A DNA stretch of 62,888 nt, counting the filler, from Sanchytrium tribonematis (lineage: Eukaryota): NCBI GenBank assembly GCA_018985235.1. It is 15 parts of 15 records of this genome, joined end to end, with 100 filler letters (N's around TTAATTAATTAA, not from the genome) between each part and the next. Parts side by side here need not be neighbours in the genome. Positions count along the whole stretch, not along the records: positions 22,548 to 40,894 come from JADGIG010000115.1; 14 more parts are not named here. One strand, written 5' to 3'. The notes beneath the pieces are model-generated. The model saw only the letters and a program-made list of their open reading frames with translations. It was not told the DNA's origin and ran no database searches. Both the position numbers and the translations under genes were made by a program. Shown one piece after another: positions 1,050 to 62,647 of this stretch (position 1 is its first letter; the number at the start of each line of letters is the position of its first letter).

Positions 1050-4000
1050 ATGAAGTTACTACACAAAACCATAGTTCCCAGTACTTATGTGCGAGACATT
1101 TGCACAGGTTCATTTACTAAGCCTAAAGAACAGGAGATGGTGACTATTGGAGGATCATTATTAAGACTATTTAGTCTGACAAATGGCAAATTAATTTTGC
1201 TACAAGAATTCGATTTATTATGCACATTGTGCACAGTGAATGCCGTCAAGTTACCTGGCACTCATTTAGATCTAATATGTTTAACTTCTGATGGTGGTTT
1301 ATTCCACGTTTTTAAATTAGAGAATTGTCAATTGTTAAAAATACATGCCGAGGCCTTTGGAAGATCGGGGACGAGGCGTATTATTCCTGGAATTTACACT
1401 TCAGTTGATCCAAAAGGACGAGCAATTATGACTAGTGCCATTGAGTCCAAAAAAATTACCTACATTCTTAATAGGGATGATTCTAAATATTTAATTTCAT
1501 CTCCGTTGGAAATTAATTCGAACAAAACAATTGTCTTTGATAGCTGTGGTGTAGATGTTGGGTTTGATAATCCAGTTTTTGCAGTCTTAGAATGCCAATA
1601 TGACGACGCAACTAGAAACTCGGATTGGTATAATTTTTTGGAAAAACAAGTTGTCTTCTATGAATTAGATTTGGGATTAAATACTATGATTTTGAAATTT
1701 TCTCATAAAGTAGATAGTCAGTCCCATAAAGTAATTCAAGTTCCGAGTGGGCTAGGTCCAAGTGGTGTTTTAGTATTTGCTATTAATTCAGTCACATGGG
1801 TGCACCCAAAAAATGAACCAATTACAGCCCCTTATCCACAAAGAGACCTTGATGCAAACGTTATGGTCAATTGTGTCACTTTGTTTAAATCTAAAAAGCA
1901 GTTTTTTTACATTCTGCAATTTAATAATGGGGATGTTTTTAAATTAGAGTTTAAAGAAGAATTTCAATTTTATTATTTAGCTACTATGAAAGTATGCTCA
2001 CAAATTGCAGTTTTCAAGAGCGGTTTTATTTACTTTGCAAATAACTCGTTGTATCAAATTGAAAATTTAGGAGAGTCAACTTCTACTGAATATGAGGCAA
2101 AGCAGACAGGATCCTTATCAATCGCTCAAAACATGATAAATTTAACGCCTTTACTCCATATTTCAAAGTTTAAGGAATCATTATTTGCTTTAACAGGCAC
2201 TCATGACGAATCAAAGTATTCTTTAATTAAACATGGTTCTATGCCAACTGTTATTCAGAGCATCCCATTACCTGACATTCCAAAGAAAATGTTCTCATTT
2301 TTGTTAAATAGCTTAAATTATATTGCAATTTCATTTATTGAGTATACAATTATTCTAGAATTTGGGCAAACCATCAACCAAAAACAACTAGATTGTTGCA
2401 AATATGCATCTGTGTCTATCGGAACTTTTAAGCATGAGATTTTCCAAGTCACAAATGATTTCATCATGTATAAAAATCGTAATATATTCGAAGCTCCTAT
2501 AAAATTAGCAAGCCACAATGAAAAGCAATTACTGGTTTACTCTCAAAAGTCAGTAATTCTATTTGAACTGAATATTAATGATGATTTGCATGAGGTAATG
2601 AATCTGAGTTTAGAAAATGTCGTAGATATTTCTATTCCTCCACTTAAAAATGCCAATACATTGTTTTTCGTTGTCTTATTTGATCGGGAAATTCATATTT
2701 ATAATTTTAATGGTGAAATGTTAAGTATGACGATGCTTGGATATTCTGCTGTTAATTGTGAAATCTATTTGAGCAAAAATACGTATGCTTTGAATGTTTC
2801 AATGACAAGCGGGCATTGTTTTCATGCAAATTGCAATGAATCGGGTGACTTGTACAACTTAAATACCAAGTATATTTCTCATACCGTAAAATGTCACGAT
2901 CAGCTGATAATTGCTGATGATATTTGGGTAGATGACACCAATATTATCTTGAAAGATCAAATAGATGCAATTTATCTTAATGATATGTTATTTTCAGTTG
3001 ATTCAAAATCATTTGTGTATTGCAGTATCAATTTGCAAGACAAAATGAATATTAAGACTGCCAATTTACCAAACACACCAAAAATATGCTTAGACTACCA
3101 AAATCAAAAGCTTTTACTTTGCTCAGATAATTTCCAACCATTTGATGGATCATGGCAAAGTACCGCATTTTTGCTGTCGGATGATTTAAAAGCTTTACAT
3201 TTGTTTGATCTCAACGAGACCCCATTATCAGCATGTTTTTGTATATTAAAAGATGAAAAATATTTAGCAGTCAGTACTGCTGTTCAACTTAAATCTGTAG
3301 CGTTTGCTTTTCATAAGTCATACATCAAGTTATTTGATTCAAATTTCGAATTGGTGCATACAACAGAATTAAAAGATCTCTGTCATGCGCTACATCCATT
3401 TCACGAATTTTTAATGGCTGGAGTGCATAACAAAGTAGTTCTTTATGATGCTGGAAAAAAACAACTTTTAAAAAAATCAGAAGTTGGCAATGTCAATGAA
3501 AAAATCATAAAAATTCATTCTCAAGGTAATAGGATTTTCGTATCTGATTTGAATACCGGTTATGCTGTATTGGAGTATCTAGAGGGCGAATTTATACGAT
3601 TTTGCGATGATTATCTTCCAAGACATCCAAGTGCAAGCTATTTATTAGATTACGACACATTAATTAGTGGTGACAAATTCGGATTGATTAGTACATTGAG
3701 GGTTCCGGATAGACTCCGAGACGATTTGCAACAAGACATGTACGCCAACAGAATTTTATATCAACGGGGATTTCTCAATGGAGCACCACATCGCTTAGAA
3801 AAAGTCAACGAATTTTTTGTCAATGACTTGGTAACCCATTTTTCAAAAACGACCAGCGCATATGGTCCCATAATTTTAGCGAGTGGAATACACGGGAGTG
3901 TCATTGGCCTGATACCAATCCAATTAAAATCAGAATTCAAAGTTTTAGAACCATTAGAAGATCAAATGCGAATATTGATGAATACAATGAATCGAAGTCA

Positions 4001-4169
4001 TTTGGCATATCGATCTAGTTATGGGGCGTGCAAAGACGTCATTGATTTTGATCTCCTGATTCAATTTTTAGACTTGGATGCAACTACTCAAAATAAGTTG
4101 GCAGAAACTATAGAGTTGACTGTGTCTGAAATATGTACTATTATATATAAATTCAAATCAATAAATTAG
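1050..4169 (+). CDS. RSE1: Splicing factor SF3B3/Rse1 (U2 snRNP SF3b), shortened to 1039 aa
   Basis: FGRSGTRRIIPG, DPKGRA, ISSPLE, DVGFDNPVFAVLE, YELDLGLN, KKQLLKK, LDYDT..GDKFG, GAPH and HLAYRS motifs. Confidence 0.95.
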   Translation: MKLLHKTIVPSTYVRDICTGSFTKPKEQEMVTIGGSLLRLFSLTNGKLILLQEFDLLCTLCTVNAVKLPGTHLDLICLTSDGGLFHVFKLENCQLLKIHAEAFGRSGTRRIIPGIYTSVDPKGRAIMTSAIESKKITYILNRDDSKYLISSPLEINSNKTIVFDSCGVDVGFDNPVFAVLECQYDDATRNSDWYNFLEKQVVFYELDLGLNTMILKFSHKVDSQSHKVIQVPSGLGPSGVLVFAINSVTWVHPKNEPITAPYPQRDLDANVMVNCVTLFKSKKQFFYILQFNNGDVFKLEFKEEFQFYYLATMKVCSQIAVFKSGFIYFANNSLYQIENLGESTSTEYEAKQTGSLSIAQNMINLTPLLHISKFKESLFALTGTHDESKYSLIKHGSMPTVIQSIPLPDIPKKMFSFLLNSLNYIAISFIEYTIILEFGQTINQKQLDCCKYASVSIGTFKHEIFQVTNDFIMYKNRNIFEAPIKLASHNEKQLLVYSQKSVILFELNINDDLHEVMNLSLENVVDISIPPLKNANTLFFVVLFDREIHIYNFNGEMLSMTMLGYSAVNCEIYLSKNTYALNVSMTSGHCFHANCNESGDLYNLNTKYISHTVKCHDQLIIADDIWVDDTNIILKDQIDAIYLNDMLFSVDSKSFVYCSINLQDKMNIKTANLPNTPKICLDYQNQKLLLCSDNFQPFDGSWQSTAFLLSDDLKALHLFDLNETPLSACFCILKDEKYLAVSTAVQLKSVAFAFHKSYIKLFDSNFELVHTTELKDLCHALHPFHEFLMAGVHNKVVLYDAGKKQLLKKSEVGNVNEKIIKIHSQGNRIFVSDLNTGYAVLEYLEGEFIRFCDDYLPRHPSASYLLDYDTLISGDKFGLISTLRVPDRLRDDLQQDMYANRILYQRGFLNGAPHRLEKVNEFFVNDLVTHFSKTTSAYGPIILASGIHGSVIGLIPIQLKSEFKVLEPLEDQMRILMNTMNRSHLAYRSSYGACKDVIDFDLLIQFLDLDATTQNKLAETIELTVSEICTIIYKFKSIN

Positions 4170-22547: not shown

Positions 22548-23321
22548 ATTAAAACTTTCCAGGGATAATGCGCTTATTTCATTACCATGCAAAGCATATA
22601 TAGTCTTTGTGGTTCCAAACATTTTCCTTACCGATCCACGGGAGTTGACGAGTGCAACTCTATGAGATATTCCAAAGGGATGAAATCTAATGATCTCCAA
22701 AATACCAGTTTCCGTGGCTCCAATGAAGTACGTCACCCCATTAAACCAAAAAGATTCAACCAACTGAAATTTAAATACGCTTGAAAAAACAACATGATCC
22801 CCCTTAAAAATTATGCCGTTACTAAAGCTAAAGCATCTGCCAGGTATCTCAGAATCGTATAATACCCGTGATCCTTTAATTTTTCTAGTAAATAAATCGT
22901 TTGTTGTGAAAATTTCAGCAGATTCAGCATCTATTGAGTAGGATCTACTAAAAAGCAAACTGTCCATCAAATATGCTTTGTCTCCCAATATATCATTCCA
23001 TGTCCTCATTTCTGGTAATTCAGTTTCTGTATCAATTTTTGTTGCTGTAAGCGCCCATGGGTTCCAAACAGGATTTTGGGTACTTTTCGAATGCACTTTA
23101 ATGTTAAATTGTGTGAAAATATCTGCATAGTCTGTCTGAGAACTATTCTCATTAACCTCTATCGATTTAGTCTGAACATAATTTTGATAATGTATAAAAG
23201 GCTTGGATTCTGTCAAAATAACCGGCTCTTCTTCAGAAACCTCAAAGTCATCTTCATAAATTGATGATTTCTTCATATCTTCAATTTCTTCAAAATCATC
23301 ATCGTAATTTAAGTGAGACAT
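22548..23321 (-). CDS. Divergent WDR60/DYNC2I1-like dynein-2 intermediate chain fragment (3' cut)
   Basis: NYDDDFE...YEDDFE acidic motif, LC8-type QT sites (YVQT, SSQTD, STQNP), then a beta-rich region. Confidence 0.45.
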
Positions 23322-24022: not shown

Positions 24023-25104
24023 CTATTTATTTTCGTGATACCTTTCTTTAGGCAAAGTGTTTTTCTTTGACCAAAATATTCCACAAGCCTAAATAAGTTA
24101 AATATTACATTACAAAGAGTCCGAGGGCCGTTTGGACCTCTTCTCATGACTGGAGTAAAAATCCCACTCAGCAAACACCAATTACATTTCCAGCTTTGAC
24201 GAAACTCACTTACTTGTTCTCTTCCATCAAAGTTGAACACTCGTGCAGATGCCCCAAAACCCCTGTGATGCTTTGGCGCCTTTGCCTCAACTTCGATTTT
24301 GTCCGCTTCGCTCAATAAGTGTAATGTTTCGTGGTCAACCCTAACTTCATCATATATCATATTTGGAGGTTTTTCTAAAATCTGATTTGGATCTATTTTG
24401 AAGCTTTTAACTGCATAAGACGGCTGATAGTAATCAAACTTTCTTCGTCGTCGTCTGGAAGTTTTGGATAGACGCTTTTCAATTTGGCTTTCATCCAAAT
24501 AAGTAAAAATTGGAAATTTGCTATTAGATTGTGGTATATGATTAACAACTTCATCGGCTTGTAATCCATAATAAATTTGGTCACAAATCGTAAATGCGAT
24601 CAGATTTTCCCAAGCAGTTCCTAATCCTAATTCTGTGCAATAAATATAGGTAAAATCTTCTACGGTGACTCCACTGTCTAAATCCCAATAAAATTCGTCG
24701 TATATATGTAGTGAAAAATGATTTTGGTCAATTATTATGGCAATATACCGCGATTCTTCGACTTCTTTTGTATTCATGAGAGGGTGATCGGTAGGGTCTG
24801 AAATTTGTTGCACCATTTGTGTAATGCAGGTATTTCCCAACGTTCCAACATTAATTCCGTAATCATTTAGAGTCAAATCAATAAGATATTTGGGTGTATA
24901 TAGGTTCTCGAAAGCATTCCATAAAAACTGTTCTCTAATTTTCATGCCATCATAGTCTACACTTAAGTTGATTGGAATCAAAAGACAATTAGGCGATGGT
25001 TCGGTATAAAAATAAATATGGTTTGTTCCTGTTGCCTTCGGAAGTTGTACAAGTCGCTTTTTGGTCTCTTCAATGTCACTCAGTGATTCTATGGACTCGC
25101 TCAT
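24023..25104 (-). CDS. SFH1: SNF5-domain RSC subunit Sfh1 with C-terminal GATA zinc finger (2 exons: 25104-24109, 24088-24023)
   Basis: LIPI...D...IREQFLWN and DEFYWDL SNF5 repeats. The GATA finger CNWC...RRGPNGPRTLCN|ACG is completed only after removing a 20-nt intron. Confidence 0.85.
24089..24108 (-). other. 20-nt spliceosomal intron GTAATATTTAACTTATTTAG
   Basis: Removal restores LCNACG of the GATA finger. Confidence 0.92.
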
Positions 25105-26865: not shown

Positions 26866-26920
26866 TAAGTATTGAATTTTAATTTAGAAAATTATTACTA
26901 TATCATCAACATTTATTTAT

Positions 26921-28485: not shown

Positions 28486-30823
28486 CTATAATTTACTTAA
28501 TGCTTCAACATATTGACGCTGATACTCTTTAAGTAATTTCAAAGTTGCTGGGTTTGGTTTGCTACATACGTTTCGAATCATTTCGTAGAACACCTGTTGG
28601 ATTTTTAAAAGATTTACACTCGAGTCGATATAAATTAAATTCTGCTCGTCTTCATACAAATCTTTCGCCATTTCTCGAGCATCCTCTACAAGTTCTACAG
28701 GTAATGCTGCATTTTTGGCTAAATCAATTCCATAAAATCGACTCTTGGATGCACCCTCTTGAATTTCATAATAATATTGAATTCCATTTTGCCGAACTTC
28801 TGAATGAAAATGAATTTGAATAATTCCAGGATATTGTTCAAGTGGCTCGATTAATTCTTCTATATGGGTAACCATGAACGTAATTGCTTGAGAATTTAAC
28901 AGTCTTTCGATGGTAGCAAGCGATATGGCAATTGCATCTATATGACAAGTCCCTCTTGCCAGTTCGTCTATTATAACAAGAGATTTAGGAGTCACTTTGT
29001 CAAAAATATATGAAAGCGACCTCATTTCCTTCACAAAAGTACTTGCATTTGTGGCCAAATCATCGTCATTTCCAATTCTTGTTAAAATGCTTTCAAATAT
29101 TGGAAAATACATCAATTCACAAGGAACATAACATCCCATTTGACACATCACAACTAAAATCGAAATCTGTTTAGTGTAAACTGATTTACCAGACATATTC
29201 GCACCAGATATAACTTGGATTCTGGATTCGCGACTTGCATAACAATCATTGGGATGTGATTTCATTTTCATTGAAATCCTGGTAGGATGGTGGCCTTGTT
29301 TGAAGGCAAGAACTTCAGAAAATTGCGGTCTGACAGTTTCGTGTACAGAGGAATACTTTGAAAGTGAGTATATAACATCAATTGACGCGATTTTGTCACT
29401 TATCGTATACCATAGCTCCATACTTTCTCTCAAAAAATTTATAAGATCTCTCAAAACTCTAGGTAAGTAGTAAATACATCTCAGATCGAATATCAACTTC
29501 ACAAAGGTTTTCTGTTATCCTTTCATTTAATTTCATCAAGTCCATTGTGGTGAAAGTAATTTTTTTCCCTTTTTTCTTTCGCTCAATAAATTGTTCATTT
29601 AGTTCGTGTTCTCTTTCTTTAAAAGCTGAAAAACGATACCCTTTTCTACCTTCAAATACGATTTGGTACTCAATTCCAGTCTCTTCCGAGTAAGAGGCAC
29701 ACAAGTCATACACATCATCTACAGTTTCTTTATACATTTGTCTTGCCACATCTAACATCCCATCAATCTCAGGCTTAATCGCAAAAACCTTTTGATTTAA
29801 AAGCCCTCTTTTATTATTTTCAAACACCATTTCATCTGATATGATTGCATCTAGCCTTAAAAAGATTCTATCCACCAATTCTTCTGAAATGGAGTCTAAC
29901 AACGGCGATAATAGAAATTTTTCAGAATTGGCCATTTTCATCAGCGAAATTAAAGAGTTACAAATTTTTTTAAAATCAAAGCACATTGACACATTTTGAT
30001 TCAACTGTCCGTACTTGTTTTTTAAAGCAATTTGATTTTTTACGAGAAACAATATCAACTTATCAATATCACCAAGGGATACTAAATAATCTCTGATAGA
30101 TTTCATGATGTCCTGATTATCAATCAGATATTGCACACAATTTTGACGACTTTCAATCAAAGATTCACTGGTACTAGGTTGTAGGATATTGGTTCTCAAT
30201 TTTCTGCTTCCCATTTTAGTACAGCAATAATTAAGAGCGTTGTAAAGGCTCCCGGTATTTTTCATGCCAGCCTGATTTTGAACCAGTTCTAAATATTTTG
30301 CGGTTGTATGATCAATCATCATTGTATCCTCTACGGCGCAAACTTTGAAATTTAAGCTATTTAAAGCAAACATTTCAGTACTGCCAGTAAGATATTTAAA
30401 AAGAGCACCAACACAACTTAAGGAAAAGAAAAGATCTTTTGTAAGACTTCTTATATTTGCCTTTTGAGAAAGTAAAGCGAAATTTTCAATCATGTGTTTT
30501 CCGTGCTGGTCATTAAAATATTTTCTATCGATTGGAATAAGATCCGCAGAGGTGTATTCGTTCAGGGTTTTCATCAAATGTTCACTCATGTGAATATTTG
30601 GAAATAGAATCACATCAGGATCAATTACCATGAGTCTTGTAAGAAGCAGCTCATAAGTTTTAGCATCTGAGAATTCGCTTAATTGAATTTCGCAAGATGA
30701 AGTATCGCATGCAGCTACCCCAATTTGTGGAACATGTCCTCTTGATTCTGATATTACTGCATAAATGTTTGCTTGCTTCCCAGAAGTAGTTTTTGAGATT
30801 GTGCTTACATTAGCAAGTGACAT
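28486..30823 (-). CDS. MSH4: Meiotic MutS homolog 4 (2 exons: 30823-29478, 29458-28486)
   Basis: ISESRG..IG, LELV.N, G.R.LR.NILQP, LDVAR, GANMSGKS, NASTF..EM, DELARGT. Halves joined by a 19-nt intron. Confidence 0.92.
29459..29477 (-). other. 19-nt spliceosomal intron GTATTTACTACTTACCTAG
   Basis: Joins the two MSH4 ORFs in frame (IRSE-I-VLRDL). Confidence 0.92.
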
Positions 30824-30865: not shown

Positions 30866-31868
30866 ATGTCAAATGTTATACTAAATCTTAACATTTTCGA
30901 AATTAGGAGAGTGCTCAGACCTTTGCCAATGAAACAAGAAAATTTGATCGAAGCGACAGAGTTTCTAAAATCCTTTGATAATCCTACATTATACAAAACA
31001 AGCGACCAAATTGAAAATATTGAGAATATTTTTTATGACCAACAATCACAGTGTGACTCTCTTAAGCGACTTTTAGATGAAATACCGAGATTTCCTTCTA
31101 AAAGTTTGCAGCAGGAAAAACAGCGTCGATGTACGGAGCTTCAAAAGGAATTACTAGTTAAAGAAGAGTCTAAGGATTCTTTGCGCGAAAGCTTGCAAAC
31201 TGAAATCGAAGCAGTGGTAGACATGATTGAGAAGTTACGACATCTACTGTCTCGGATTCAAGAAAAATCAGCCAAATTAGACGCTGTTCGACGATCTTTA
31301 GACGAGAAGTTACAGGAGGCTCAATCTTCATTTGACAAACGCATTACAGAACAACAGCAATTTCAAGAAAATATTTTGGAAAGAAGAAAAGTCTTGGATG
31401 GTCTCGAAAACAAAGAGACAGAAATTAAGGAGCTTCTTGACAAGTTACAGTCTGAATTAAAATTGAAAGAGCAAGAAATAGCATCGTACGAAGAAAGTAA
31501 GCTCAGTTTGAAAATCAAAATCGAAGAACAACAAGCCTATTTAATTGATAGAGATTCGAAGATTGATGAAGTTTACCAAGAACAATTTACGAAGACAAAT
31601 TTCCTTAAAGAAATATTTAACGAATCAGACATGAAGACTCAAGTTAAATTGAAAAGAAAGACACTTTTTAAAGAGTTTGAGCAGCTTGGGTAATTCTAAC
31701 TAATTAAGATGGAAAATTAGTGAAAGTGGAGATCAAATCTACCAATTTGAAAAGGAAGGTAAATCTGCAACTATAAGTACAGACGTATTTTTCCCTTATA
31801 CCAAAAGTTGTACTGTAAATGGGCATGAAATCGGGTCAAGTTTACTTCAAAGTCTTCAAAATTTATAA
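30866..31868 (+). CDS. Coiled-coil protein, possibly Spc7/KNL1 C-terminal-like (2 exons: 30866-31689, 31709-31868)
   Basis: Long heptad region. Splicing gives FEQLGWKIS plus a beta-rich tail. Family assignment is weak. Confidence 0.6.
31690..31708 (+). other. 19-nt spliceosomal intron GTAATTCTAACTAATTAAG (AAG acceptor)
   Basis: Removes the stop and opens a further 160-nt exon that fills the gap to the next gene. Confidence 0.8.
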
Positions 31869-32294: not shown

Positions 32295-34027
32295 ATGATA
32301 CCTGAAATAATTGAGAAATTCTGCAATAATTTACTATTTGATGAAGCGCTGATTTATGCAGAATTATTATACAGCCAAAATAATTCTGTAGATAATTTGG
32401 AGGTATTGGCGAAAGTGTTATATAACATGCAAAGGTATGAATGTGCATTTGAATTAATTCAAAAAGAATTGAAGCATAAAAAGTTAACGGATAAAACACT
32501 CACTATATATGGCTTTTGTTCGATATATATCAGTCCTGAAAAAGGTTTGAAAGCGATCAAGTCTTACCTGATTAAAAATGAAGGTTCAGAATATTTGCAC
32601 ATAATATACGCTCGATTAAATAGACTTAATGGAGATGTCACCAATAGCAAGAGACACTTTGAAAAGGCTATTGAGCTAAATCCGTTGCTTTTGAATGCAT
32701 ATCGAGAAGCAATGAAACTTGGAAGTACTATGGATCACTCATTTCCTATAAAGATGAATCAATCATCTGACGAACCACTCGAAGAAGAACACGGGGATCC
32801 AGGAATCGTAACTAGAGCTCATCAATCAAATCTTGAGTCAAATTTAATGATAACAAAAAATAATCTTAAAATTTCGACATCATTGAAGCGGAAATCTTCG
32901 GACATTTCATCATTTAAACAAAATCATCCAAAGAAAAAACCCAAATCCTCACCTCCACAATTTGAAATTAACGAGGAAGCGCAAGATCACATCAAGTGTG
33001 AAATGGCTGTTTTTAAATGTATCTGTCAAAGAGATTTTCAAGCGGCTTTGAAAATTTTGAGAGAGTTTGACTCTTTGAACAAGTTTAACTCTTTTATATC
33101 CATTTTGAGAATTATTTGTCAACATGAGCTTAATTTACCAAAATCGGAAACGTTGTTTTCCATTTCAGTACATGTTGAAAAATATGAGCTTCATCTCGAA
33201 GGTCTGGAATATCTTCTTGCTATATTATGGATGTATCAAGATAGTGAGAGGCTTTCGAAGCTAAAATCGCAGTTGAAGAAGAGGTTCCCGAATTCTTTTC
33301 AGTATTATTTATGTAAAGGTTGTTCAAATTCCTTAGAGGGCGAGACAGAGGAAGCTATAAAAGCTTTGACAATGGCAACAAATCTAGATGAGTCGGGATT
33401 TGCTGCAAGTTTATCAGGATGGGTGCTCCTACCAGATGAAAAATTCGACCTTGCTATGCAGCTCTTTAATATCGCCAAAAAAAGAAACTCCACAGACGCT
33501 CGCGCACTTACAGGGTTAGGCTGTGTATATTTGAGAACCAACAATGTCCATAATGCATTAATTGCTCTGCAAGACTCCGAGCGACTTAAAAATAATTCAG
33601 AAACAAACAAGCTGTTATTATCCGAGGCCTTAAGAAAATCCGGCAAACTTGTTGAAGCTTATGAAGTCATAAATGGAGCGTTGTCTTTATTTCCAAAAGA
33701 GCGTACTTTGATTAATGAAAAAATAGTTTTATGCCTGAAAATGAATCAATATACTGTATTTTTATTTTAACACAGGAAGCGGCCAAAGAACTTGAGTCCC
33801 TCAAATCAATAGGGCGTCAGCATCCTTCGGTCAAAATTCTATCAGCGCAGCTTGCTTTACTTTCTGGAAATATCGGCGAATCTCACGGACAATATATGGA
33901 GGTAATTGCTGATGATATTGCCATTATAAATCAAATGCAGATGGGATTAGAAGAAATTTTTTACCCCCAAGATACCCAACATGACTTCAGCGCATTTGAT
34001 GAGGTCAAAATTAGGCCAATTGAATAA
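32295..34027 (+). CDS. CDC27: APC/C TPR subunit Cdc27-like (2 exons: 32295-33755, 33776-34027)
   Basis: ALIYAELL N-terminus, A.ELNP, LEG.EY...LW, A..GLG.VY, and EAAKELE.LK after splicing. Confidence 0.75.
33756..33775 (+). other. 20-nt spliceosomal intron GTATTTTTATTTTAACACAG
   Basis: Joins MNQYT to EAAKELESLK in frame. Confidence 0.9.
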
Positions 34028-36746: not shown

Positions 36747-37157
36747 GAAGTCTTTGTTCTTTCGTCAATTATACTATCTAATTCCCTTTTTTCTTGTGTC
36801 AAAGCACACGAGTAACAAAATAAATGAAGACAATAATCACCTACATAAACATTTTATACCTAAATATTCGTCTTCGTGTATAAAAAATCGCCCTCTCACG
36901 ATAACTCGCTGAGCTCCACTTAATAAAAAATGCTTCAGCATAGGAATGGTAACAATATATAACATTATTGAGTTAAAGTAACTTTGATCAGGGTCTAACA
37001 TTTCCCTTAGATCAGCATAAACCACACAGGGACAGAAACAAGCTCTGCAGAATGTAAATGGCTTTTGCCAGAAATTCCACATAGGAAATTTCCAGCCTCT
37101 TTCCTGAATCGGCGTCCAGCCTAAATCAGTATCAATTTCTTCTTTTTGATAAGCCAT
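36743..37157 (-). CDS. PLAC8/cornifelin-family Cys-rich protein (2 exons: 37157-36860, 36840-36743)
   Basis: CFCPCV in exon 1. DYCLHLFCYSCALTQEKREL in exon 2 after splicing. Confidence 0.88.
36841..36859 (-). other. 19-nt spliceosomal intron GTATAAAATGTTTATGTAG
   Basis: Removal restores the PLAC8 C-terminal D.C..H.FC..CAL.QE motif. Confidence 0.92.
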
Positions 37158-37197: not shown

Positions 37198-37840
37198 TTA
37201 CATTTTAAATTCATATTTTATTGGCTGCATATAATGTGTACTGCTATATCTTACTTTCCAAAGATCCTCAATTATTCATTTATACCTTTTCTCTAATTGT
37301 GATACTCGGAAATCGATAAACCTCGAATTCTGGATATTTCTCGAAACATTTTAAATCTAATCCATTAACACAATTATTGCTTTCATTTTGAATCGGATTA
37401 CCTGATATAAACCATTTTTCTAATTCAGTTGCTTTTTCATTTTCATAATTTGCGCTCATAGATTCTGGCTCAAAATTAGTCTTATCTGTCTGGGAAATGT
37501 CCCAAAGTGAATCATGAAATTTATGGTAGAGGCATGGAGTGATGTTTCCGCATAATTGGTCAGAATAATTAACCCAATTTGGACTTGTCTTTAAACTGAT
37601 ATTGGATATTCCATGGTCTACACTAGATTCTGTAGAATTAATACAGTATGCTTTAAGGAAAGAAAAACCGTGTTGTAGTGAATCATAGATGGCACAAACT
37701 GCATTTTTACAACTCACTTGAATTTGGTTCTGTGTATACTCACTTAATTCAGGTAAATGTACTTCATGGCTCTTTATTTCTGGTTTCTCTAGAGTTTTAA
37801 AATTTTGCTGCAATTTGGAAATAAAGTCATAGTCAAACAT
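37198..37840 (-). CDS. Hypothetical protein (2 exons: 37840-37286, 37266-37198)
   Basis: Long ORF extended by a consensus-matching 19-nt intron. No family recognised. Confidence 0.55.
37267..37285 (-). other. 19-nt candidate intron GTATAAATGAATAATTGAG (GAG acceptor)
   Basis: AAG|GTA donor, T-8/A-6 consensus, opens a 23-codon terminal exon. No homology support. Confidence 0.6.
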
Positions 37841-37974: not shown

Positions 37975-39112
37975 ATGTCTAACAATAATCATTCTGATGT
38001 TGATTCTAACTGTCTTATGATCGAGCAACAAGACAACAAAGCTTCTAGGAAACTGATTTATGCCTCAATTTTATGCTTTCTTTTCTTTTTGGCGGAATTG
38101 CTTGGTGGAATATTCGCCAATTCACTCGCATTAATTTCAGATTCTTTCCATATGTTATCCGATGTATCAGGATTTGCTATTTCATTGGCAAGTATTTGGA
38201 TTGCAAGTAAACCAAAAACATCGAGGCATTCTTTTGGATTTCACCGCGCTGAAATAATTGGTGCTGTATTGTCTGTATTATTAATTTGGGTTTTGACGGG
38301 AATTCTTCTCAGTGAAGCAGTGGAGCGTATAAAAAATCCAGTCGAGATAAATGCTCCAATTATGCTGCTAACAAGTATTGCTGGACTTGTTGTCAATATT
38401 GTTGTTCTATTTGTACTTGGTGGTCATCATCACGCTGGACATTCTCACCATCACCCAAATATCGAAGAACTCGGTGAGGAAATCGAATCTGGTAGAAACA
38501 GAATGACAAACTCCGTTGCAGGTAGCAATTCTGCTTCTCCATCTCCAACTAGGATTACGCTGGTGGAACCGGACGTGCGGGTCACTGAAGAAAGACACGA
38601 TAACATTAATATCAGAGCAGCCATAATCCACGCACTTGGTGACGCCTTGTTTAGTGTAGGTGTGATTATTGCCTCATTAATAATTTATTTTAAACCAGAA
38701 TACCACATCGTTGATCCCATCTCTACCATATTTTTTAGTATCATTGTTTTATTTACTACTCTCCGAATTTTAAAAGACAGCTTATTTGTTTTAATGGAGG
38801 CATCACCAAGCAATATCGATGTCGACAGACTCAAGTTTGAACTAAGTGGAATTGCTGGAGTGAATGATATTCATTGTTTCCATGTTTGGCTACTATCTAT
38901 TGGAAGGGTAATTTTGGTTTATTTAGACAGCCCTATCAGTTCATTTGGCAACTGACCCATCAGAAATTAGAGATTTAAAAGATCTGCATAGAATATTGGC
39001 CGACGCAGAGCATATCGCTTATAACATATTTAATATCGACCATTGTACAATTCAAATTGAAATTCCAAGAGACGGTGTAAAATCTGGATGCAGAACACCA
39101 TCCAACCAATAA
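37975..39112 (+). CDS. Zinc transporter, ZnT2/SLC30-like CDF (2 exons: 37975-38907, 38927-39112)
   Basis: SLAL.SD.FHMLSD, FG.HRAE, His-rich loop, NINIRAA.IH.LGD, HVW. ALSVHL and HCTIQIE appear after splicing. Confidence 0.93.
38908..38926 (+). other. 19-nt spliceosomal intron GTAATTTTGGTTTATTTAG
   Basis: Removal restores the ZnT cytosolic domain (SVH...HxTIQxE). Confidence 0.93.
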
Positions 39113-40022: not shown

Positions 40023-40859
40023 TTAATTGTCCATATTCCAGAAACACAACATTTTATCATAAAATGAACAAGTGGCTACTTTAGTTTGGTTAAGCCACAC
40101 AGCTCCGTAAACCATTGATTCGTGTTTTGAAAAAGTTTGCAGAATTTGATTTTGCCTCAAATCTACAATGTGTGCACCACCATGCATTGCAGCAATCAAC
40201 CATATTTGATCATTGTTTGGATTCTTTTTCATTCTCCATATTCCACCTCCACAGTCTAATTCTGATTCGATTCTGTTTGGCGTTCTTGAATCCACAATAC
40301 GGACTTTTTCGTCATAGTTTCCACATAGAATATTATTGTCATAAATTTCAAGACAAGATACACCCATTTCAAAAGTTTTCTTCCAAATTGGTTCTTTGGA
40401 AGCATTGATATCCCAAAAATTTAAGTTACAATCATCTGCACCAGAAACAATATTGGCATGATTTTGCCAGCAACAACTCCATACTTCCAAACTATGTCCT
40501 TTAATGTCTTGCATCAAGGTTCTAGTATTAGTGTCGAAAATATGCAGATAACCCAAGGAATCGGAAATAAGACACATTCCCAAATTTGATACAGACAATG
40601 ACAATCCAATCCCATTTGATATCTCATAGCATTCTTTGTCTTCACCAATTACGATAAGTTCACCCTCAGAAGTCACGCCATATAGTCTTTCCTTGTACAC
40701 TTCGATATCCAGCACACCGTTTCCTCTGTAATACTCCGCAGATCTAGAAGCAATTTTACCGACTCTTTTTGAATCTTGTAATTCATAGCATGCATAAACG
40801 AGCTGGTCATCGAAAATTTCTAAATCATCGGGAGTAAATTCCAACTCCAAGTGTTCCAT
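40023..40859 (-). CDS. DPH7: Diphthine methylesterase Dph7/Rrt2 (WDR85)
   Basis: YEL...R.G, H.LE.W, SGADD, YDE, GGGIWR, AAMH.G, HESMVYG..W, CSFYD. Confidence 0.92.
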   Translation of the reverse strand: MEHLELEFTPDDLEIFDDQLVYACYELQDSKRVGKIASRSAEYYRGNGVLDIEVYKERLYGVTSEGELIVIGEDKECYEISNGIGLSLSVSNLGMCLISDSLGYLHIFDTNTRTLMQDIKGHSLEVWSCCWQNHANIVSGADDCNLNFWDINASKEPIWKKTFEMGVSCLEIYDNNILCGNYDEKVRIVDSRTPNRIESELDCGGGIWRMKKNPNNDQIWLIAAMHGGAHIVDLRQNQILQTFSKHESMVYGAVWLNQTKVATCSFYDKMLCFWNMDN

Positions 40860-40994: not shown

Positions 40995-41710
40995 TTTATA
41001 GTATCATACCTTGAATTGAAAGGTATGAATCTAAATGGAGTGATTTTATCAGCATCTCTACCTCCCAGTATCCAGTTATTAACCATTGGATCATGTACTT
41101 TAACTTGTATTATTCCACCAGATCTCCCAAGCACCATTCTCACGCTCATTTTAGATAATAATGGATTAACTGGTTCGATTCCAGCCACTTTACCTTCCAA
41201 TTTAGTCATATTTAGTGCTATAAACAATCGATTAAAAGGGGTTTTACCCATTTTTCCAAATACCGTGCAGCAAATTCTTGTAAGTGGCAATATCTTATTT
41301 GGTGAAATACCATTACTACCCAGTGGATTGACTGTATTTGGTTCAAGTGGAAATCAATTAAATGGAACATTAAAAAATTTTCCAGACACAGTCACTAGCA
41401 TTGGACTAAATAATAATTTATTGACGGGTAAATTGGGTGCTTTGCCTAGTCAATTGCAAGGTTTAGCACTTACAGCGAATCTATTGGATGGTGATTTACC
41501 AGATTCATGGCCAGTTGGTCTCAAATCTCTTTATATCGATGATAATTATTTTACTGGTGTGTTTCCAGTTCAATTGTTGGGTCAATTAGATGTATTATAC
41601 ATTCAATTCAATTTTTTTACTGGCTGTTTAAATGTAACATTGGTTTGCTTATCCTGTAATATGGACTCGAATTCGTTTCAAGGAAAAGTTGCTTTTCAAA
41701 AACCCACTGA
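40995..41710 (+). pseudogene. LRR receptor-like protein fragment, interrupted by a transposon
   Basis: LxLxxNxLTGxIP..LP repeats, paralogous to 61023+. Similarity stops abruptly at FQKPT, where the paralogs continue FQKPNYL/LQKPTYL. Confidence 0.8.
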
Positions 41711-42904
41711 GGGGGATTCAAGTCACCGGTAGAACTTTGGTGAGATAAATTGATTGGCTTAATTTGTGCAAATGTTTGACCATCTCCTTTCATTCTTCAA
41801 CTTGCAATTCACTTGGGTGAACGGGTGAAGCAAATGTCGGACTCGTCAGATGAAGATTTAATTATTATTAAGTACCTACATTCCAAACAACAGAAGCCAA
41901 AAAGACAACCAAGGACCCATTATCATCCAATTGTGAAAATTAGAGACTGGTTTGAAGTGAATGTTCCACAATTATCCGAAAGCCGGTACAAATACTTCTT
42001 TCGAATGACTAAAAGTCATTATGAGTACTTTAAGCAAACAATACTAAATAGCGGGTCACCATATCTTGAAAATTTGAATATTGGCAAATTGCATATTTTA
42101 TTGGAAACAACGCGGACACTACAGAAATTAGTGATAGATTTAACATTTCAGCAGGAAGTGTAATATATTATATTGATCAGATGTTACAATTAATAAATGA
42201 CATTTATGGAATTTATGTCAAATGGCCAGCACAAGAGGAAAAAAGACAAATAAAGCATAGATTCTGGTTGACGTCATTGTTTGATAATTGTATTGGTGCA
42301 GTTGATGGTACTCATTGCAGCATTCCTGGAATAGGCAAATTCAAGCAAAGTTATGTTACTAGAAAATGCCAATACGGCATCAATATTACTGCAGTTTGCA
42401 CACCCAGCAAACAGATTTTTTATGCTGTGGTTGGAGCACCAGGATCATATCACGATAATCGTGTTTGGGAGTTGAATGATATTTTTAAAAATTCAAACAA
42501 TTACTTCCAAAATCAAGAATATCTCTTCGGGGATAGTGCCTATACATTGAATGAGCGCATGATGACACCATATATTGGTAATGTTGATCAAAACAAAAGG
42601 AATTTCAATTTTAAGCACTCTCAAGGACGAGTCATCATTGAAAATACATTCGGTTTATTAAAAGGTAGATTTAAGATAATGGGCCAACAAATGAAGTGTA
42701 TGAAGCTTTCCAAATATGTGTTAATATCTAAAGCATGTATTACAGTACATAATATAATAATAGAATATGACAAATTGTGTAATTTAGAAACTAATTTTGA
42801 AATTGAGGAAGATGACTTATACATTTCAGATTGGAATGAAATGCAACAATTGAATCAACATGGAACATCAGTAACAGGTGTATCTATCACTGGACATTCA
42901 AGAC
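41711..42904 (+). mobile_element. PIF/Harbinger DNA transposon, left end plus transposase (frameshifted, cut by contig end)
   Basis: Starts TGA|GGGGGATTCAAG (3-bp TSD-like plus G-rich terminus). Transposase from ATG 41834 has FRM, an HTH, GAVDGTH, G..HD, GDSAY and R..IEN.FG.LK.RF. Frame changes near 42085. Confidence 0.88.
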
Positions 42905-47018: not shown

Positions 47019-47718
47019 TGGATGATTTGTTGGTATTTGGAGATGGTTTGATGATTTGTGGATCATCTAATTGGTAATTTAAGATATAACTACCATTTTT
47101 CATCTTATTCATGATTAAATAAGGTTGATCGATTAAATTGACTTGAAAACCAACTATATATCTGATTTTATCATTTAATGTGATTGGAATGAGGGAGACT
47201 AGATTGATAAACGGCTCACCATCCTTTTTATAGTTGATTAAAGAGAATTGACCTTCTTTAAAATGTGTAATAGATTGTTTAATTTGATAAACGACATTAT
47301 TATCTGTATATCTTCTGACTTCTCCACATTTGATGACATTGCTATTGGGTGGTGCTTGTAGAAATCTACAGTTCTTGCCAATACATTCATCTGATGAATA
47401 ACCCGTTAATTTGGTGAATGCATCAGAAACATAAATAATGGGATGATCTGGGAGTAAAAAGTCAGATACGACGAATGAACAACTTAAATCAACTGGTCCA
47501 AGATGGATTTGAGGATTAGATCGATGGTAGACATGGGATAGAGTGGATAACAAGTCAAATCCAGTGCTGGAATAGAGACCTGGCATAGATTGTGATTTAT
47601 CTGATGATTGTGGGGTGCTTTCTTGTTTATTGGATGCTTTTAGGGTATTAGAGATGGGATTGGTAGAGTTTGTTGCTGTGTTTTGAGTTCGATTTGTAAA
47701 ATATTTGGAATCGGACAT
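47019..47718 (-). CDS. wc-1: White collar-1-like LOV blue-light photoreceptor, 5' part
   Basis: YSSTGFD, R.NPQI.LGPVD.SCSF, PIIY.S..F..LTGY, GKNCRFLQ (photoactive Cys), INYKK.G.PF.N, GFQV.L..QP. Confidence 0.92.
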
Positions 47719-48257
47719 TTTTGGACGCCACTTTGATTTGGGGGGATTTGTGAGAAAATAGATGAATCGAGTCATTTGATTGGTGGAAAGATGATTTTAA
47801 AAGTGGCACCTGGTGGAATCTAGAGACGGGTGACTATGTGAGTCATGATGATACTAGATGATGGACATAAATATAAAATACGCTTATTAACATGTGAATA
47901 ACATTAAAATGGGTTGTTATTGTCCATCAAAAATCGATTTATTGTTTCATGGCGCGAAAACGTCATGATGAGTCATTTCTTCGTCATTCTATTTCAGGGA
48001 ATCGCAATCAATAAGCGATGTAATAATGAGTAAGGATGATGACGAGTGAGCTCATGTCATAGAATGACAGAATACGTATCAAAATCAATGTGTTTAGTGC
48101 TGATTTGTTAATCTGTTCAAACATTGCTTTAATAGAAAGTTGAGAGGCACAAATTTATTATGACCCACGCATATAATTGAAGAAACATTAGATCTTTAAA
48201 TGGCATTGATTAATTGGTCAACAACCCTTTCAAATCCCCTTGCAAAACCCTTTTAAA

Positions 48258-51027: not shown

Positions 51028-51115
51028 CTCGTTATAAGATTCCAGAACGAAATTGGTAAATCACCAAATACAGGTCATCGCTATCTTGAAAGCCAAACAA
51101 AGTGGACAAAAACAT
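51028..51115. repeat. 88-bp exact direct repeat, copy 1 (cut by contig start)
   Basis: Identical to 51780-51867. Confidence 0.92.
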
Positions 51116-57016: not shown

Positions 57017-58907
57017 GGAAGGATTCCGTATTGTTTAAAACAATGCTACTAGCTATAATCACACTAGATGCTTTGTAAAATACACGCGTCACAACTAAAT
57101 TAATAAAAATAACTTGATTTGGCATCTGTGGTTGCAATTTCCAATCTATCAGGTAAATAGGACAAGTAGTATTTCTTACACATGCTATAATTAGCAACAT
57201 ATGAGCTATTCAGCAAGGGATTAAAGGATAAATCACAATTTGTCAATAAAGTCGTATTTTGTAATTGAACATCTAAAATAGACGTATTTCCTAGTACTAA
57301 GTATGTTGGTTTTTGCAAAATGACCTTGTCGTTGAAATAATTGCCCTCGTTCACTGGATCCCCTAATACGACATCCTTCAAAGAAGCAGGAAATGCAGGT
57401 AATGGACCTGTTAGAAAATTCCCCTGAATTCGCAACTGTTGTAGATTGGGTGGTAAAGTAGGAAGTGGCCCTTTTAGATTACATCTAATAAGTTGAAGCA
57501 CTTTCAAACTGCTAGGAAGTGCTTTTAATGTTTGATTCAAGTTTACATATTTTAATACTAAAGTCTCTAACCCCTCTGAAAATATTGGCAGTGGACCTCC
57601 AATGGTTGAACCTTCAATGCTGATATATTTCACATGCCCTGGAATATAGTCTGGTATTCTTGCTGTTTGGTTATAATTGCCAAAAATGTAAAGCGAATTC
57701 AAAGTTGAAGGAATATCTGTAATTGAAAATGCAAATCCATCTACAGTTTGTAATAGATCCCCTCCATCTATACTTAATTCTGTCACATTTAATCCCGCAC
57801 AATTTACATAATAACTGGTGTCACAGCAATTCTCATCCCTTAATGAATCGCTTTGAATTCCCATTTTTTGAAACATTTTATCAACCAATTTGCATGCACC
57901 CAGTGATGTCGGAATAGAATACTTTTGAATATCGGGTTCGCATTTTGTTAAATTGACCAAATTGGCTATTGAAATATTGTTTAATGAAACATCACAAGAT
58001 CGAATTACGTTCAAATTTGTTGTCACAACTTTCTCAATTAAATTATTTCTCAAATTCAGTTCATTATAAGCTGAAGGACCAAAATTTGACGCGTCTATAA
58101 TCCCTTTAATCTTATTATTTTTCAAATATAATTGGGTCCAAGTATTTCCCTTTAATTCATTTTCCACACTATCAAATTCATTGTCAGCAGCTGAAAACAT
58201 TTGTAGCTGAATTAAATTGGGAATGGTGCCATTAAGCTGATTCGTATCTAGGGCTAAATTGACTAGAGTATTGGGTAATTTGCCAGATATGGGGCCAGTA
58301 AAATAATTGTTGGAAAGGTACAGATTTTGTAAATTTGTAAAGCCTGACAAGTCTGGAAAGTTCCCTTTGATATCATTATAGCTTAAATCCAAGTCATGTA
58401 GCGTATCCGGCAATAATGTGGTGTTGATGGTGCCATTAAGTTTCAAATAGCGCAATCTAATGTTTGTGATTCTGTTGTTGTTACACACAGAGTAATACAT
58501 AAGAGAGTCACAGCAATTCTTTTTTTTAAATAAATAGTTGAAGCTATCCGGGGCAGTTAGATGCATATTTAACTGATTTAAAAATAAATAAAAATTTGGG
58601 CAATCGATGGAAGGTGGAGATTTGAATGATAAATTACATTTCGAGGTCAAAGCAATATCCGCCTGCATGTCTGGATCAAAATAATTATAGATTGTGTTGC
58701 AATTTTTTATCCCATTATTGTTTGGCACAAACAACCAATCAAATTCATTGTCAGAAAGATACAAAGTGGTTATATTGGGAGAAGAAATAGTTAAATTTCC
58801 AGAAAAGCTATTGGATGATAGATCTAGGGTCTGGACACTCTTAAAATCTAAAGGAATTGCTCCCGTGAAACTACAATATGACAAATCTACAATTTCTACA
58901 TTGTCTG
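57017..58907 (-). CDS. Multi-module LRR receptor-like protein, both ends cut (intron 57095-57113)
   Basis: Repeated modules of Cys cap (DC...NCC...C) + LRRs + CDLS.N. Frame continues to the contig end after a 19-nt intron. Confidence 0.85.
57095..57113 (-). other. 19-nt spliceosomal intron GTTATTTTTATTAATTTAG
   Basis: Removes the stop and joins to the open S-rich stalk frame. Fits the T-8/A-6 consensus. Confidence 0.72.
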
Positions 58908-60180: not shown

Positions 60181-60898
60181 TTATTGATTTTTAAATTTCT
60201 TTTTATAAGTCTCTACATCCTTATCTAAAGCTCGTTTTTGAGTGTCGGCCTTTTCCATGAACGCGTCTAATTTTTTAAGGTCCTTTGAATCTTTGGTTGT
60301 ATTTCTTATTTGTTTCCCTACTTGTTGCATTACTGTCAACACAACGCTTAATTGATTAGGTAACCAAGTAACAATTGGGCTGCCACCAGTAGCTAATTTA
60401 GTTTAAGATACCAACAGGATGATTTGAATATTTAATAATATATTCTTTTGTGAAATTCCAATGTCTATGTCGAAAATCTCGTACTTGATCCAATAAACTC
60501 AGGTATTTCAAGCTACTTTGGACATCTTTTAGAGCGTATGCCTTTACTCCTAGTTTTTTACTTTCATTTTCCACAAAAGTCAACCATTCAGTGTGGGCAT
60601 GGGGACGATAAGTTCGAAAGTCTTTCAAAATTTGCGTCAATGGATTGTCTGGCATCACATTGGTGATTTCTAATAGATTGTCACACGTTGGGATAATAGA
60701 ATCATTAGCACCTGATTCACCACGATAAGCCTGAGGATCTTTCGATACTCCTTCATAAATCACGCCGTTTGGAAAAATTTCCTCTTGATTTTTGATTCCC
60801 ATGATGAAAGTTCTAAATCTGTTATAATCTTGCGGTTTACTGGCTGCCCACATGGTTTCCATAACGATATTAATTTGATTCATGGTTTTGGTTAAATT
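60181..60898 (-). CDS. Indoleamine 2,3-dioxygenase (fungal IDO-gamma type), 3' part (intron 60393-60411)
   Basis: FRTFI.GI, RGESGANDS, DFR.YRP, FR.RHW.FTKEYI. HPVATGGSPIVTWLPNQL appears after splicing. Confidence 0.92.
60393..60411 (-). other. 19-nt spliceosomal intron GTATCTTAAACTAAATTAG
   Basis: Removal restores the conserved ATGGSP motif. Confidence 0.93.
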
Positions 60899-61022: not shown

Positions 61023-62634
61023 ATGAAGAAACACCTTTTGTTAAATTTGTTTTTGACCATTTTACACGCTACAGATTGTCAAGGCGCCATAAATTTCTTT
61101 ACTAGTTTGAATATGCAAACAACAGATGCATCAGAATACAATGCTATCCCTATAAATTGTTGTAATTACACTAGTGTTTCTAGTAAAATTACTATTACAT
61201 GTACAGCAACAACGATTTCTATGATCCAATTGCAATATATGAATATAAATGGAGTTATTAAGGGTGATTTAATGCCACAAAGTATTTCAGAATTGAATAT
61301 TCTAAATTGTTATAATTTAATTGGTAATATCCCAAATAATTTACCAAATTCATTGAAAATAATGCGATTAAATGATCTTGGACTTACTGGTAGTATTCCA
61401 TCCACACTTCCTACCAGTTTAATTATATTCAGTGCCCAGCACAATGCTTTGAGTGGTGCCATTCCCAATTTTCCACCCACCGTCCATCAAATCTTTTTGA
61501 ATGTGAATGCTTTGACTGGTTCTATTCCAACCACATGGCCAAGTGGATTGACAGTCTTTCAAGCTAATTATAATCAATTAAATGGTACATTAGACTATTT
61601 GCCTGATTCAGTCACCAATATTGATTTGGGAAATAATTTGTTTACTGGTAATTGTAACCATTTGCCGAGTCAATTAAAAACAATAGATATGAGCTCAAAT
61701 AAGATGTCTGGTCAATTAATGGAGAATTGGCCTGTTAATTTGGATTCATTTTCAATTTATCACAACCAATTTAGTGGAAAAATACCAACTCAATTATTGG
61801 AACAAGTGCATACTTTGACGATTTCTTCAAATTTATTCACTGGCTGTATAAGTTCAATTTTAATATGTTCTTATTGTTATTTAGGAGGAAATCAATTTGA
61901 AGGCTCCATTGTGTTTCAAAAACCCAATTATTTGGATATCTCATCTAATTTATTGACGGATATAAATGTGGTGGATATATCTGTATTAGGATTGTGTTTT
62001 TTAAATAATAATCCCATGTTAGGACTCATTGGTGAGCCGTATCTCTCTAAATGTCAAATTAACGGGATTTATAGTAAATCTGGAACTACAACAAAATGCT
62101 ATTTAAGCACTAAATCATTGGCTACCAGTACATCTAGTACCCAGCTATCGATTGCAAGTACTCCAAAAACTTCTATTTTAAGCAGTTCTGTTATTTTTCA
62201 GACAACTCCAACTCATTCAATAATCTTGAGTGAATCTTCGTTTACAGTCTTTGATTCATCAACTTTTTCCACCGATAAAGATTCAGAAACAGAATCTTAT
62301 ACATCTAGTACGAGTGAAATGGAATCATTAGAGATCAGATCTGTCCAGACACGTATTTAAATCTTATGTAGGACCATTTCATGACACAAAAACTACAATG
62401 TCACAAATTACAAACAGAACTATCCAATATACGAGCCTTTCAACCACTTTAAAAGCAACCACTTCATTATTTGTTGAGAAATGGCATGGGGCCATGGGCG
62501 CATTTGAATTGAAATTTGAAATCACACAAGTTTGTAAAATTGGATTTGATTTATTGATAATTGGATTCATTATGGCTAAAATGCCAATTAGATTCAAAAC
62601 TAGAACACAGAATCGGGTAATGAGTCATTACTAG
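61023..62634 (+). CDS. LRR receptor-like surface protein: signal, Cys cap, LRRs, S/T stalk, C-terminal TM (2 exons: 61023-62352, 62372-62634)
   Basis: NALSGAIP/NALTGSIP repeats. A 19-nt intron joins the 445-aa and 78-aa ORFs in frame. Confidence 0.88.
62353..62371 (+). other. 19-nt spliceosomal intron GTATTTAAATCTTATGTAG
   Basis: Links the stalk to the TM-containing exon. Confidence 0.85.
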
Positions 62635-62647
62635 TAGAATAAATGAA

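What the first reader, a model, noticed from the sequence alone, without database searches (positions are those of the whole stretch)
29459..29477. Fixed-distance branch point: T at -8 and A at -6 in all ten introns, with any nAG acceptor
Seen: the last 8 nt are TTATTTAG, TTACCTAG, TAATTAAG, TAACACAG, TTATGTAG, TAATTGAG, TTATTTAG, TAATTTAG, TAAATTAG and TTATGTAG, i.e. invariant T-W-A-n-n-n-A-G. There is no room for a polypyrimidine tract, and the acceptors include TAG, CAG, AAG and GAG. Known: branch sites have the core TnA, and Stentor tiny introns also place an A six nt from the 3' end. Inference: the 3' splice site is measured from the branch A, giving a lariat loop of only 14-15 nt, convergent with ciliates. 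AT-richness makes single matches easy, but 10/10 at both positions is unlikely by chance.
Basis: partly seen in the sequence, partly recalled or inferred. Interest (0 to 1): 0.85.

Follow-up and report, generated by a model that had tools for sequence, protein, structure and literature searches.

The report
Ultra-short 19-base introns in a fungus
Ten genes of a compact fungal genome carry 19-20-base inserts with intron ends, shorter than the fungal introns I found in print and all in the back half of their genes; they are likely spliced out using a branch adenine fixed six bases from the end, a spacing already reported for a yeast and a ciliate.

Summary
Confirmed: ten GT-AG inserts of 19 nt (8) or 20 nt (2), all with T at -8 and A at -6. 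A motif-blind scan recovers the pattern: 9 of 13 candidates of 19-20 nt have it, against 4 of 51 others (p=1.4e-5). Homologues put the best excision at exactly 19 nt in the MutS and IDO genes. The wider consensus, Y-T-W-A-Y, fits a U2 branch site. The closest named relative is the sanchytrid Amoeboradix gromovi.

'Any nAG' is weak: 8 of 10 are YAG, and the AAG and GAG introns lack homology support. The fixed A(-6) without a pyrimidine tract is not ciliate-specific; it is published for Yarrowia lipolytica. No RNA or branch mapping was available, so ruler, first-AG scanning and a size floor cannot be separated.

What looks new: these introns are shorter than Encephalitozoon's 22-76 nt, and public proteins of this DNA miss them. 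They also sit at the 3' end of genes (mean position 0.82, p=5e-4), opposite to the 5' bias of intron-poor genomes. The scan's notes hold nothing on this genome; similar branch-ruler ideas exist for Neolecta (unchecked).

The parts
29459..29477 (-). 19-nt intron in MutS-family gene lacking domain I (MSH4-like, label recalled); TAG acceptor
   Evidence: Best excision length against 4 homologues is 19 nt (score 888; next best length 847). This is the best-ranked GT-AG option (rank 6 of 1023 peptides; five non-canonical 19-nt cuts shifted by 1-6 nt score higher). Covered without differences by a Logan contig
24089..24108 (-). 20-nt intron in SNF5/GATA-finger gene; TAG
   Evidence: Pfam GATA positions 6-24 end at exon 1; exon 2 supplies the next cysteine of the finger (motif recalled). 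The only intron that breaks 5' anchoring of the T/A pair
31690..31708 (+). 19-nt candidate intron in a coiled-coil gene of unknown family; AAG acceptor
   Evidence: Joins 274 and 52 codons; exon 2 scores best in the predicted frame (4.9 bits; other five frames -14.7 or lower). No homologue; 31-nt TAG and 37-nt alternatives are in frame
33756..33775 (+). 20-nt intron in CDC27; CAG
   Evidence: Exon 1 matches human CDC27; exon 2 coding score 12.6 bits; exon 2 alone has no significant match
36841..36859 (-). 19-nt intron in PLAC8-family gene; TAG
   Evidence: Pfam PLAC8 positions 1-79 in exon 1 and 83-101 in exon 2
37267..37285 (-). 19-nt candidate intron in gene of unknown family; GAG acceptor (weakest of the ten)
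   Evidence: Adds 22 codons, coding score 0.6 bits (others -4.1 or lower). The unspliced frame stops one codon later and could be the natural end
38908..38926 (+). 19-nt intron in zinc transporter (cation efflux) gene; TAG
   Evidence: Pfam ZT_dimer 1-30 in exon 1 and 35-76 in exon 2, contiguous. Adenosines only at 3, 4, 14 and 18
57095..57113 (-). 19-nt candidate intron with GTT donor in an LRR-like gene cut by contig ends; TAG
   Evidence: Joins 597 and at least 25 codons; coding score 0.2 bits; no family match for exon 2
60393..60411 (-). 19-nt intron in indoleamine 2,3-dioxygenase-family gene; TAG
   Evidence: The GT-AG cut gives the top-ranked of 653 peptides against 8 homologues, with a gapless junction against 18 homologues
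62353..62371 (+). 19-nt candidate intron in an LRR-like gene; TAG
   Evidence: Joins 443 and 86 codons; coding score 3.4 bits (others -13.4 or lower). Identical in a Logan contig
26869..26887 (+). Extra 19-nt consensus match beginning 4 nt after the stop of the NTF2-like gene: possible 3' UTR intron
   Evidence: Pattern match only; about 2 chance matches per length are expected
1050..4169 (+). SF3B3/Rse1, a U2 snRNP subunit: evidence that a spliceosome is encoded
   Evidence: phmmer E=1.6e-103 to human SF3B3; 1039 aa against 1217

Best explanation
These 19-20-nt GT-AG inserts are likely ordinary U2-type spliceosomal introns of a sanchytrid-like fungus, shrunk to near a working minimum, in which A(-6) is predicted to be the branch nucleotide. 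Inferred mechanism: the short donor (GTAW in 9 of 10) pairs with U1/U6, and U2 pairs with Y-T-W-[A]-Y at -9..-5 with the A bulged. Step 1 forms a 14-15 nt lariat loop. Step 2 docks the AG that lies three bases past the branch A, which is also the first AG, so no pyrimidine tract or long-range search is needed. The spacing is most likely invariant because deletion bias pushed it to the shortest distance this spliceosome accepts, while the 5' side tolerates one extra base. Shown: inserts, lengths, motif, frame restoration, an SF3B3 gene. Inferred: splicing, branch identity, the docking rule and the evolutionary cause.
For: The 19-nt excision optimum from homologues is independent of splice signals in 2 of 2 genes tested. 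Pfam domains continue across the junction in PLAC8 and ZT_dimer. Motif-blind enrichment p=1.4e-5. C at -9 in 5 of 10 against 8% background (p=5.5e-4, post hoc); Y at -9 and at -5 each 9 of 10 (p=0.04 each); mean U2 register 3.85 at -6, next best 3.15 (U2 motif recalled). The zinc-transporter intron has no other interior A. SF3B3 is present. The same spacing is published for Y. lipolytica and Stentor. Slu7 is described as unnecessary at branch-to-3' distances of 9 nt or less (PMC10158995).
Against: No spliced read or lariat was seen. In 3 of 10 introns another A scores higher for U2 pairing than A(-6), and in 2 more it ties. Four of ten introns have no homology support. A perfect 19-nt match lies on the sense strand inside the SF3B3 coding sequence (1773-1791), where splicing would break the frame, so the motif alone is not sufficient. 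In the MutS gene, homologues favour a cut shifted by 1-2 nt with non-canonical ends, by one residue. The sample is ten introns in 61 kb.
Confidence: 0.72

Rival explanations
1. Real introns, but position is set from the 5' end or by total length (branch A at +14), and the -6 spacing is a by-product of the 19-nt length.
For: 8 of 10 introns are 19 nt, where 5' and 3' anchoring are identical; the 20-nt CDC27 intron has T12/A14 as well as T13/A15.
Against: The 20-nt SNF5 intron has C12/T14 and fits only 3' anchoring. In Stentor the putative branch A moves from 10 to 11 as length goes from 15 to 16.
Confidence: 0.1
2. Real introns, but some branch at an upstream A (about -10), giving a Stentor-sized 10-11 nt loop, or the AAG intron is really a 31-nt intron ending in TAG.
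For: In the AAG intron the A at -10 has the best U2 register (5 against 4.5); in SNF5 it ties; A(-10) occurs in 6 of 10. The 31-nt TAG alternative is in frame.
Against: No such A exists in the zinc-transporter intron; only -6 is invariant.
Confidence: 0.1
3. The inserts are not spliced: they are frame-breaking mutations, assembly errors or pseudogenes.
For: Public predicted proteins of this DNA follow the unspliced frames (P0001, 311 aa, exon 2 only; P0183, 275 aa), but this only reflects intron-unaware calling.
Against: Uniform length, GT-AG ends and a shared internal motif; exact 19-nt optimum from homologues; conserved domain halves intact on both sides. A second assembly shows the same letters, though it may derive from the same DNA.
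Confidence: 0.04
4. The T-8/A-6 pattern is reader selection plus AT-richness.
For: Intron interiors are 88% A+T (133 of 152 nt); for the six best introns alone, two invariant columns arise in 2.6% of shuffles.
Against: The motif-blind scan and length-peak tests; an invariant TnA arises in 0.05% of shuffles even for those six.
Confidence: 0.04

Closest known systems
Constrained branch-point-to-AG introns of Yarrowia lipolytica (also Trichomonas, Giardia); PMC2483917, passages
   Same: No pyrimidine tract; branch motif anchored at a fixed distance; TACTAAC-AC-AG puts T at -8 and A at -6 exactly as here; a fungus.
   Different: Y. lipolytica has a strong ACTAAC consensus and rather long introns; here only T-W-A is invariant and the whole intron is 19-20 nt.
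Stentor coeruleus 15-16 nt introns; PMC9505925, passages
   Same: Narrow length range, AT-rich, GUA donor, putative branch A at -6 with weak consensus; extra base lies on the 5' side.
   Different: Four bases shorter (10-nt loop against 14-15); unrelated lineage; T(-8) invariance was not described in the passages I saw.
Encephalitozoon cuniculi introns; PMC3629993, PMC6349667, PMC2483917, passages
   Same: Reduced parasite in or beside Fungi; tiny GT-AG introns with a TAAYTT branch hexamer.
   Different: 22-76 nt, strict GTAAGT-type donors, few dozen introns mostly in ribosomal protein genes with extreme 5' bias; here 19-20 nt, weak donors, varied genes, 3' clustered; RPL26 and RPS2 are intronless.
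Bigelowiella natans nucleomorph (18-21 nt) and Mikrocytos (16-17 nt) introns; PMC10245619, PMC2483917, passages
   Same: Same size class and narrow range.
   Different: Not fungi; the nucleomorph introns are reported to show no branch-point signature.

Membership tests
U2-type spliceosomal intron | GT...AG termini | tested here: met
   10 of 10
U2-type spliceosomal intron | Removal restores a conserved protein | tested here: met
   MutS, IDO, PLAC8, zinc transporter, GATA finger; weak for CDC27; not shown for 4 of 10
U2-type spliceosomal intron | Branch-site motif able to pair with U2 | tested here: met
   Y-T-W-A-Y at -9..-5; best mean register at -6. U2 motif recalled; this organism's U2 not seen
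U2-type spliceosomal intron | Removed from mRNA via a lariat at the branch A | not testable with these tools
   No RNA holder listed
U2-type spliceosomal intron | Spliceosome encoded | tested here: inconclusive
   SF3B3 present; no Rfam match in the window; whole genome not held
Yarrowia/Trichomonas-type constrained 3' end | Fixed branch-to-AG distance without pyrimidine tract | tested here: met
   10 of 10, if A(-6) is the branch
Yarrowia/Trichomonas-type constrained 3' end | Strong ACTAAC/WCTAAC consensus | tested here: not met
   0 of 10 carry it in the -6 register (sequences)
Heterotrich ciliate tiny introns | 15-16 nt length | tested here: not met
   19-20 nt; homology optimum 19
Microsporidian-type introns | Strict GTAAGT donor and 5' position in gene | tested here: not met
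   0 of 10 GTAAGT; all in the 3' half
-3-blind ('any nAG') acceptor system | Verified non-YAG acceptors at about background frequency | tested here: inconclusive
   2 of 10 non-YAG against 56% RAG among all AG sites in the window; both unverified

The most novel reading that the evidence does not exclude
This sanchytrid-like lineage has the shortest spliceosomal introns in Fungi (19-20 nt), defined by a U2 branch helix at a fixed six bases from the end and largely blind to the -3 base. They survive almost only within about 260 nt of the stop codon, because such signal-poor introns are spliced only with help from the 3'-end processing machinery: an inverted, 3'-terminal intron architecture.
Probability: 0.2. 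Interest if true: 0.85.

Novelty: new variant of a known kind. Interest (0 to 1): 0.6.

Why it matters
It would add an independent, fungal case of near-minimal introns, below the 22-nt floor I found reported for microsporidia. This is useful for the open question of the smallest substrate a spliceosome can handle, and A(-6) recurring in a yeast, a ciliate and here suggests a shared lower limit. Practically, about 10 of some 55 genes in this window (my estimate from the ORF lists) are interrupted, and at least two public proteins are truncated as a result. Published sanchytrid proteomes were predicted with TransDecoder on genomic contigs (PMC8371127), so gene-loss claims for this group may need rechecking. 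The 3' clustering runs against the 5' bias reported for intron-poor genomes (PMC532390) and is directly testable on the existing assemblies.

Tried and rejected
No whole genome is held, so no genome-wide logo, snRNA, U2AF, SF1 or Slu7 search was possible. No RNA holder listed; the only run is DNA and may be the source of the window, so searches are not independent support.

Related loci: the MutS alignment found none in metagenome contigs. ELP3 gave 80 loci, of which only L004 (2.6 kb, 88% identity, support 1.0) groups with the window, and it showed no 19-20 nt match to the intron pattern. An IDO query in prokaryote genomes gave one irrelevant hit. A 28-nt pattern found nothing in viral contigs.

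The AAG gene has no homologue or family; a kinetochore RWD-type identity is only my guess. The GAG gene got no Atlas answer and only weak Pfam hits below cut-off. A fold of the AAG gene's exon 2 was not obtained. Paralogue contigs did not cover the LRR intron.

The ranks were distorted by a sliding scoring window and were redone. The 'PTC' label printed is a constant, not a result. Frame-joining candidates of other lengths were rejected as gene-end or intergenic joins without homology tests of each; in-frame 18- or 21-nt stopless introns would be invisible to these scans.

Literature: 'sanchytri'+'intron' gave 9 papers and 'Amoeboradix'+'spliceosom' gave 1. In the two sanchytrid papers searched, the word intron occurs once each; the other hits were seen as listings only. 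Searches showed no fungal intron under 22 nt in listings; one search returned nothing. PMC3809491 (E. cuniculi intron structure) is not held. No supplements were read, and subscription journals and genome-portal annotations are not covered.

Full report
Setting. The window is 15 contigs joined by 100-nt linkers, about 35% GC, densely packed with eukaryotic genes in the standard code. The gene at the finding has MutS domains II-V. Its closest named full-length homologue is from Amoeboradix gromovi, 60% identical, with three unnamed proteins at 55-60% and others near 28%. I infer a sanchytrid or close relative; the species was not determined. No whole genome is held.

The introns. All ten octamers of the finding map to GT-AG inserts of 19 nt (8) or 20 nt (2) that join reading frames. 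For MutS and IDO I scored every frame-restoring deletion of 1-79 nt against homologues without using splice signals. The best length is 19 in both (888 against 847 next; 1760 against 1675). The GT-AG cut ranks 1 of 653 peptides for IDO and 6 of 1023 for MutS, where homologues prefer a cut shifted by 1-2 nt by one residue. Pfam PLAC8 and ZT_dimer continue across their junctions, and the GATA finger is cut at its intron. CDC27 exon 1 is identified, but exon 2 has no match alone. The four others rest on frame joining and a codon model: the predicted frame was best of six in 10 of 10, but only by 0.2-4.9 bits absolute in these four. Logan contigs show the same letters over eight of the introns, but may be the same DNA.

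Is T-8/A-6 more than chance? Yes. Both are 10 of 10. Shuffles of the interiors gave an invariant TnA at any offset in 0 of 100,000 (all ten) and 0.05% (six best). A scan blind to these positions found them in 9 of 13 candidates of 19-20 nt and in 4 of 51 others, after dropping 3 rows that share an acceptor with a listed intron (p=1.4e-5). All 9 of the 19-20 nt candidates with a coding-like second exon have them. Pairing to the U2 branch-recognition motif (recalled) is best on average at -6; it is top or tied in 7 of 10 introns. The zinc-transporter intron has no other A between position 4 and the AG. A gene for the U2 subunit SF3B3 lies in the window.

What does not hold. 'Any nAG': 8 of 10 acceptors are YAG, while RAG makes up 56% of AG sites in the window. 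The AAG and GAG introns have no homologue; the first has an in-frame 31-nt TAG alternative and the second could be a natural gene end. 'Measured from the branch A': no intron has an internal AG, so first-AG choice fits as well, and only the SNF5 intron separates 3' from 5' anchoring. The motif is also not sufficient: a perfect 19-nt match sits inside the SF3B3 coding sequence.

Mechanism. Most likely these are normal two-step U2-type splicing substrates with branch A(-6), a 14-15 nt loop and docking of the AG three bases downstream, at a spacing driven to the spliceosome's lower limit (inferred; confidence about 0.72). A review states that Slu7 is unnecessary at branch-to-3' distances of 9 nt or less (PMC10158995, passages), which fits but is untested here.

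Unexpected: position. In the eight complete genes the introns lie at 0.58-0.94 of the coding length, mean 0.82 (p=5e-4 against uniform; p=0.01 for the five homology-backed ones). Seven of eight lie within 260 nt of the stop (p=4e-4, threshold chosen post hoc). The IDO intron is at 0.82-0.92 of five of six homologues; the sixth matched an earlier motif. Among 49 ORF starts, six 18-19 nt GT-AG candidates with an upstream ATG turned up; one has T-8/A-6 but is GC-rich and lies before an intact start. The all-position pattern list shows no 5' intron either. Intron-poor genomes are described as 5'-biased (PMC532390, passages; E. cuniculi, PMC6349667, passages), although filamentous fungi lose fewer introns at 3' ends. 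Possible causes, all untested: coupling to 3'-end processing (link recalled), tolerance of retention near the C-terminus, or cDNA-mediated loss sparing the last 250 nt. The A. gromovi MutS protein is one complete ORF across the site with no insertion, so that intron is lineage-restricted.

Comparison. The fixed A(-6) without a pyrimidine tract is published for Y. lipolytica, and most fungi lack the tract (PMC2483917, passages). Stentor has its putative branch A at 10 of 15 and 11 of 16 (PMC9505925, passages). Size class: nucleomorph 18-21 nt, Mikrocytos 16-17 nt (PMC10245619, passages), myxozoan medians 22-27 nt (PMC13644364, first third read), E. cuniculi 22-76 nt (PMC3629993, passages). I found no description of sanchytrid introns (searches; passages 15, 53). 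Their proteomes were called by TransDecoder on contigs (PMC8371127, section 18), and two public proteins of this DNA follow unspliced frames. The library lacks most subscription journals, and I read no supplements.

Verdict. Observation confirmed; interpretation partly supported; a new variant of a known kind. The branch geometry itself is known. The value lies in apparently unreported 19-20 nt fungal introns and their 3' clustering, on ten cases and without RNA evidence. Interest 0.6.

Noticed in passing
window, all ten introns: All lie in the 3' half of their genes; 7 of 8 in complete genes within 260 nt of the stop, opposite to the usual 5' bias.
   Followed up: partly
26869-26887 +: Perfect 19-nt intron consensus starting 4 nt after the NTF2-like stop, in a short gap between convergent genes; possible 3' UTR intron.
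   Followed up: partly
1773-1791 +: Perfect 19-nt consensus on the sense strand inside SF3B3; splicing would break the frame. Chance level, but a candidate for a feedback cryptic intron.
   Followed up: no
29457-29479 -: Homologues fit best if 19 nt are cut 1-2 nt upstream of the GT-AG position, as if an insertion had borrowed the host AG as acceptor; the intron is absent from A. gromovi. A hint of recent gain.
   Followed up: partly
41780-42904 +: Two overlapping ORFs resembling a Harbinger-type transposase (label recalled) with a frame change near 42070-42100 and no GT-AG pair seen there.
   Followed up: no
40995-41729+, 57017-58907-, 61023-62634+, 62624-62888+: Several members of an expanded LRR-like family, two with tiny introns near the C-terminus (repeat type judged by eye; Pfam gave no hit for 61023-62357).
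   Followed up: no
47020-47796 -: Protein with a LOV/PAS-like photosensor motif (recalled), cut by the contig end.
   Followed up: no
52632-52931: Short-period tandem repeat open in several frames at a contig end.
   Followed up: no
51028-51120 and about 51775-51865 +: A direct repeat of about 90 nt in an apparently non-coding contig.
   Followed up: no
22650-23067, 29657-30050, 40026-40082: Clusters of alternative bases in Logan contigs, suggesting heterozygosity or mixed strains.
   Followed up: no
L004:1-2626: Metagenome contig of a close relative (ELP3 88% identical) with a repeat-rich ORF and a DNA polymerase kappa-like gene (label recalled); no tiny intron seen.
   Followed up: partly
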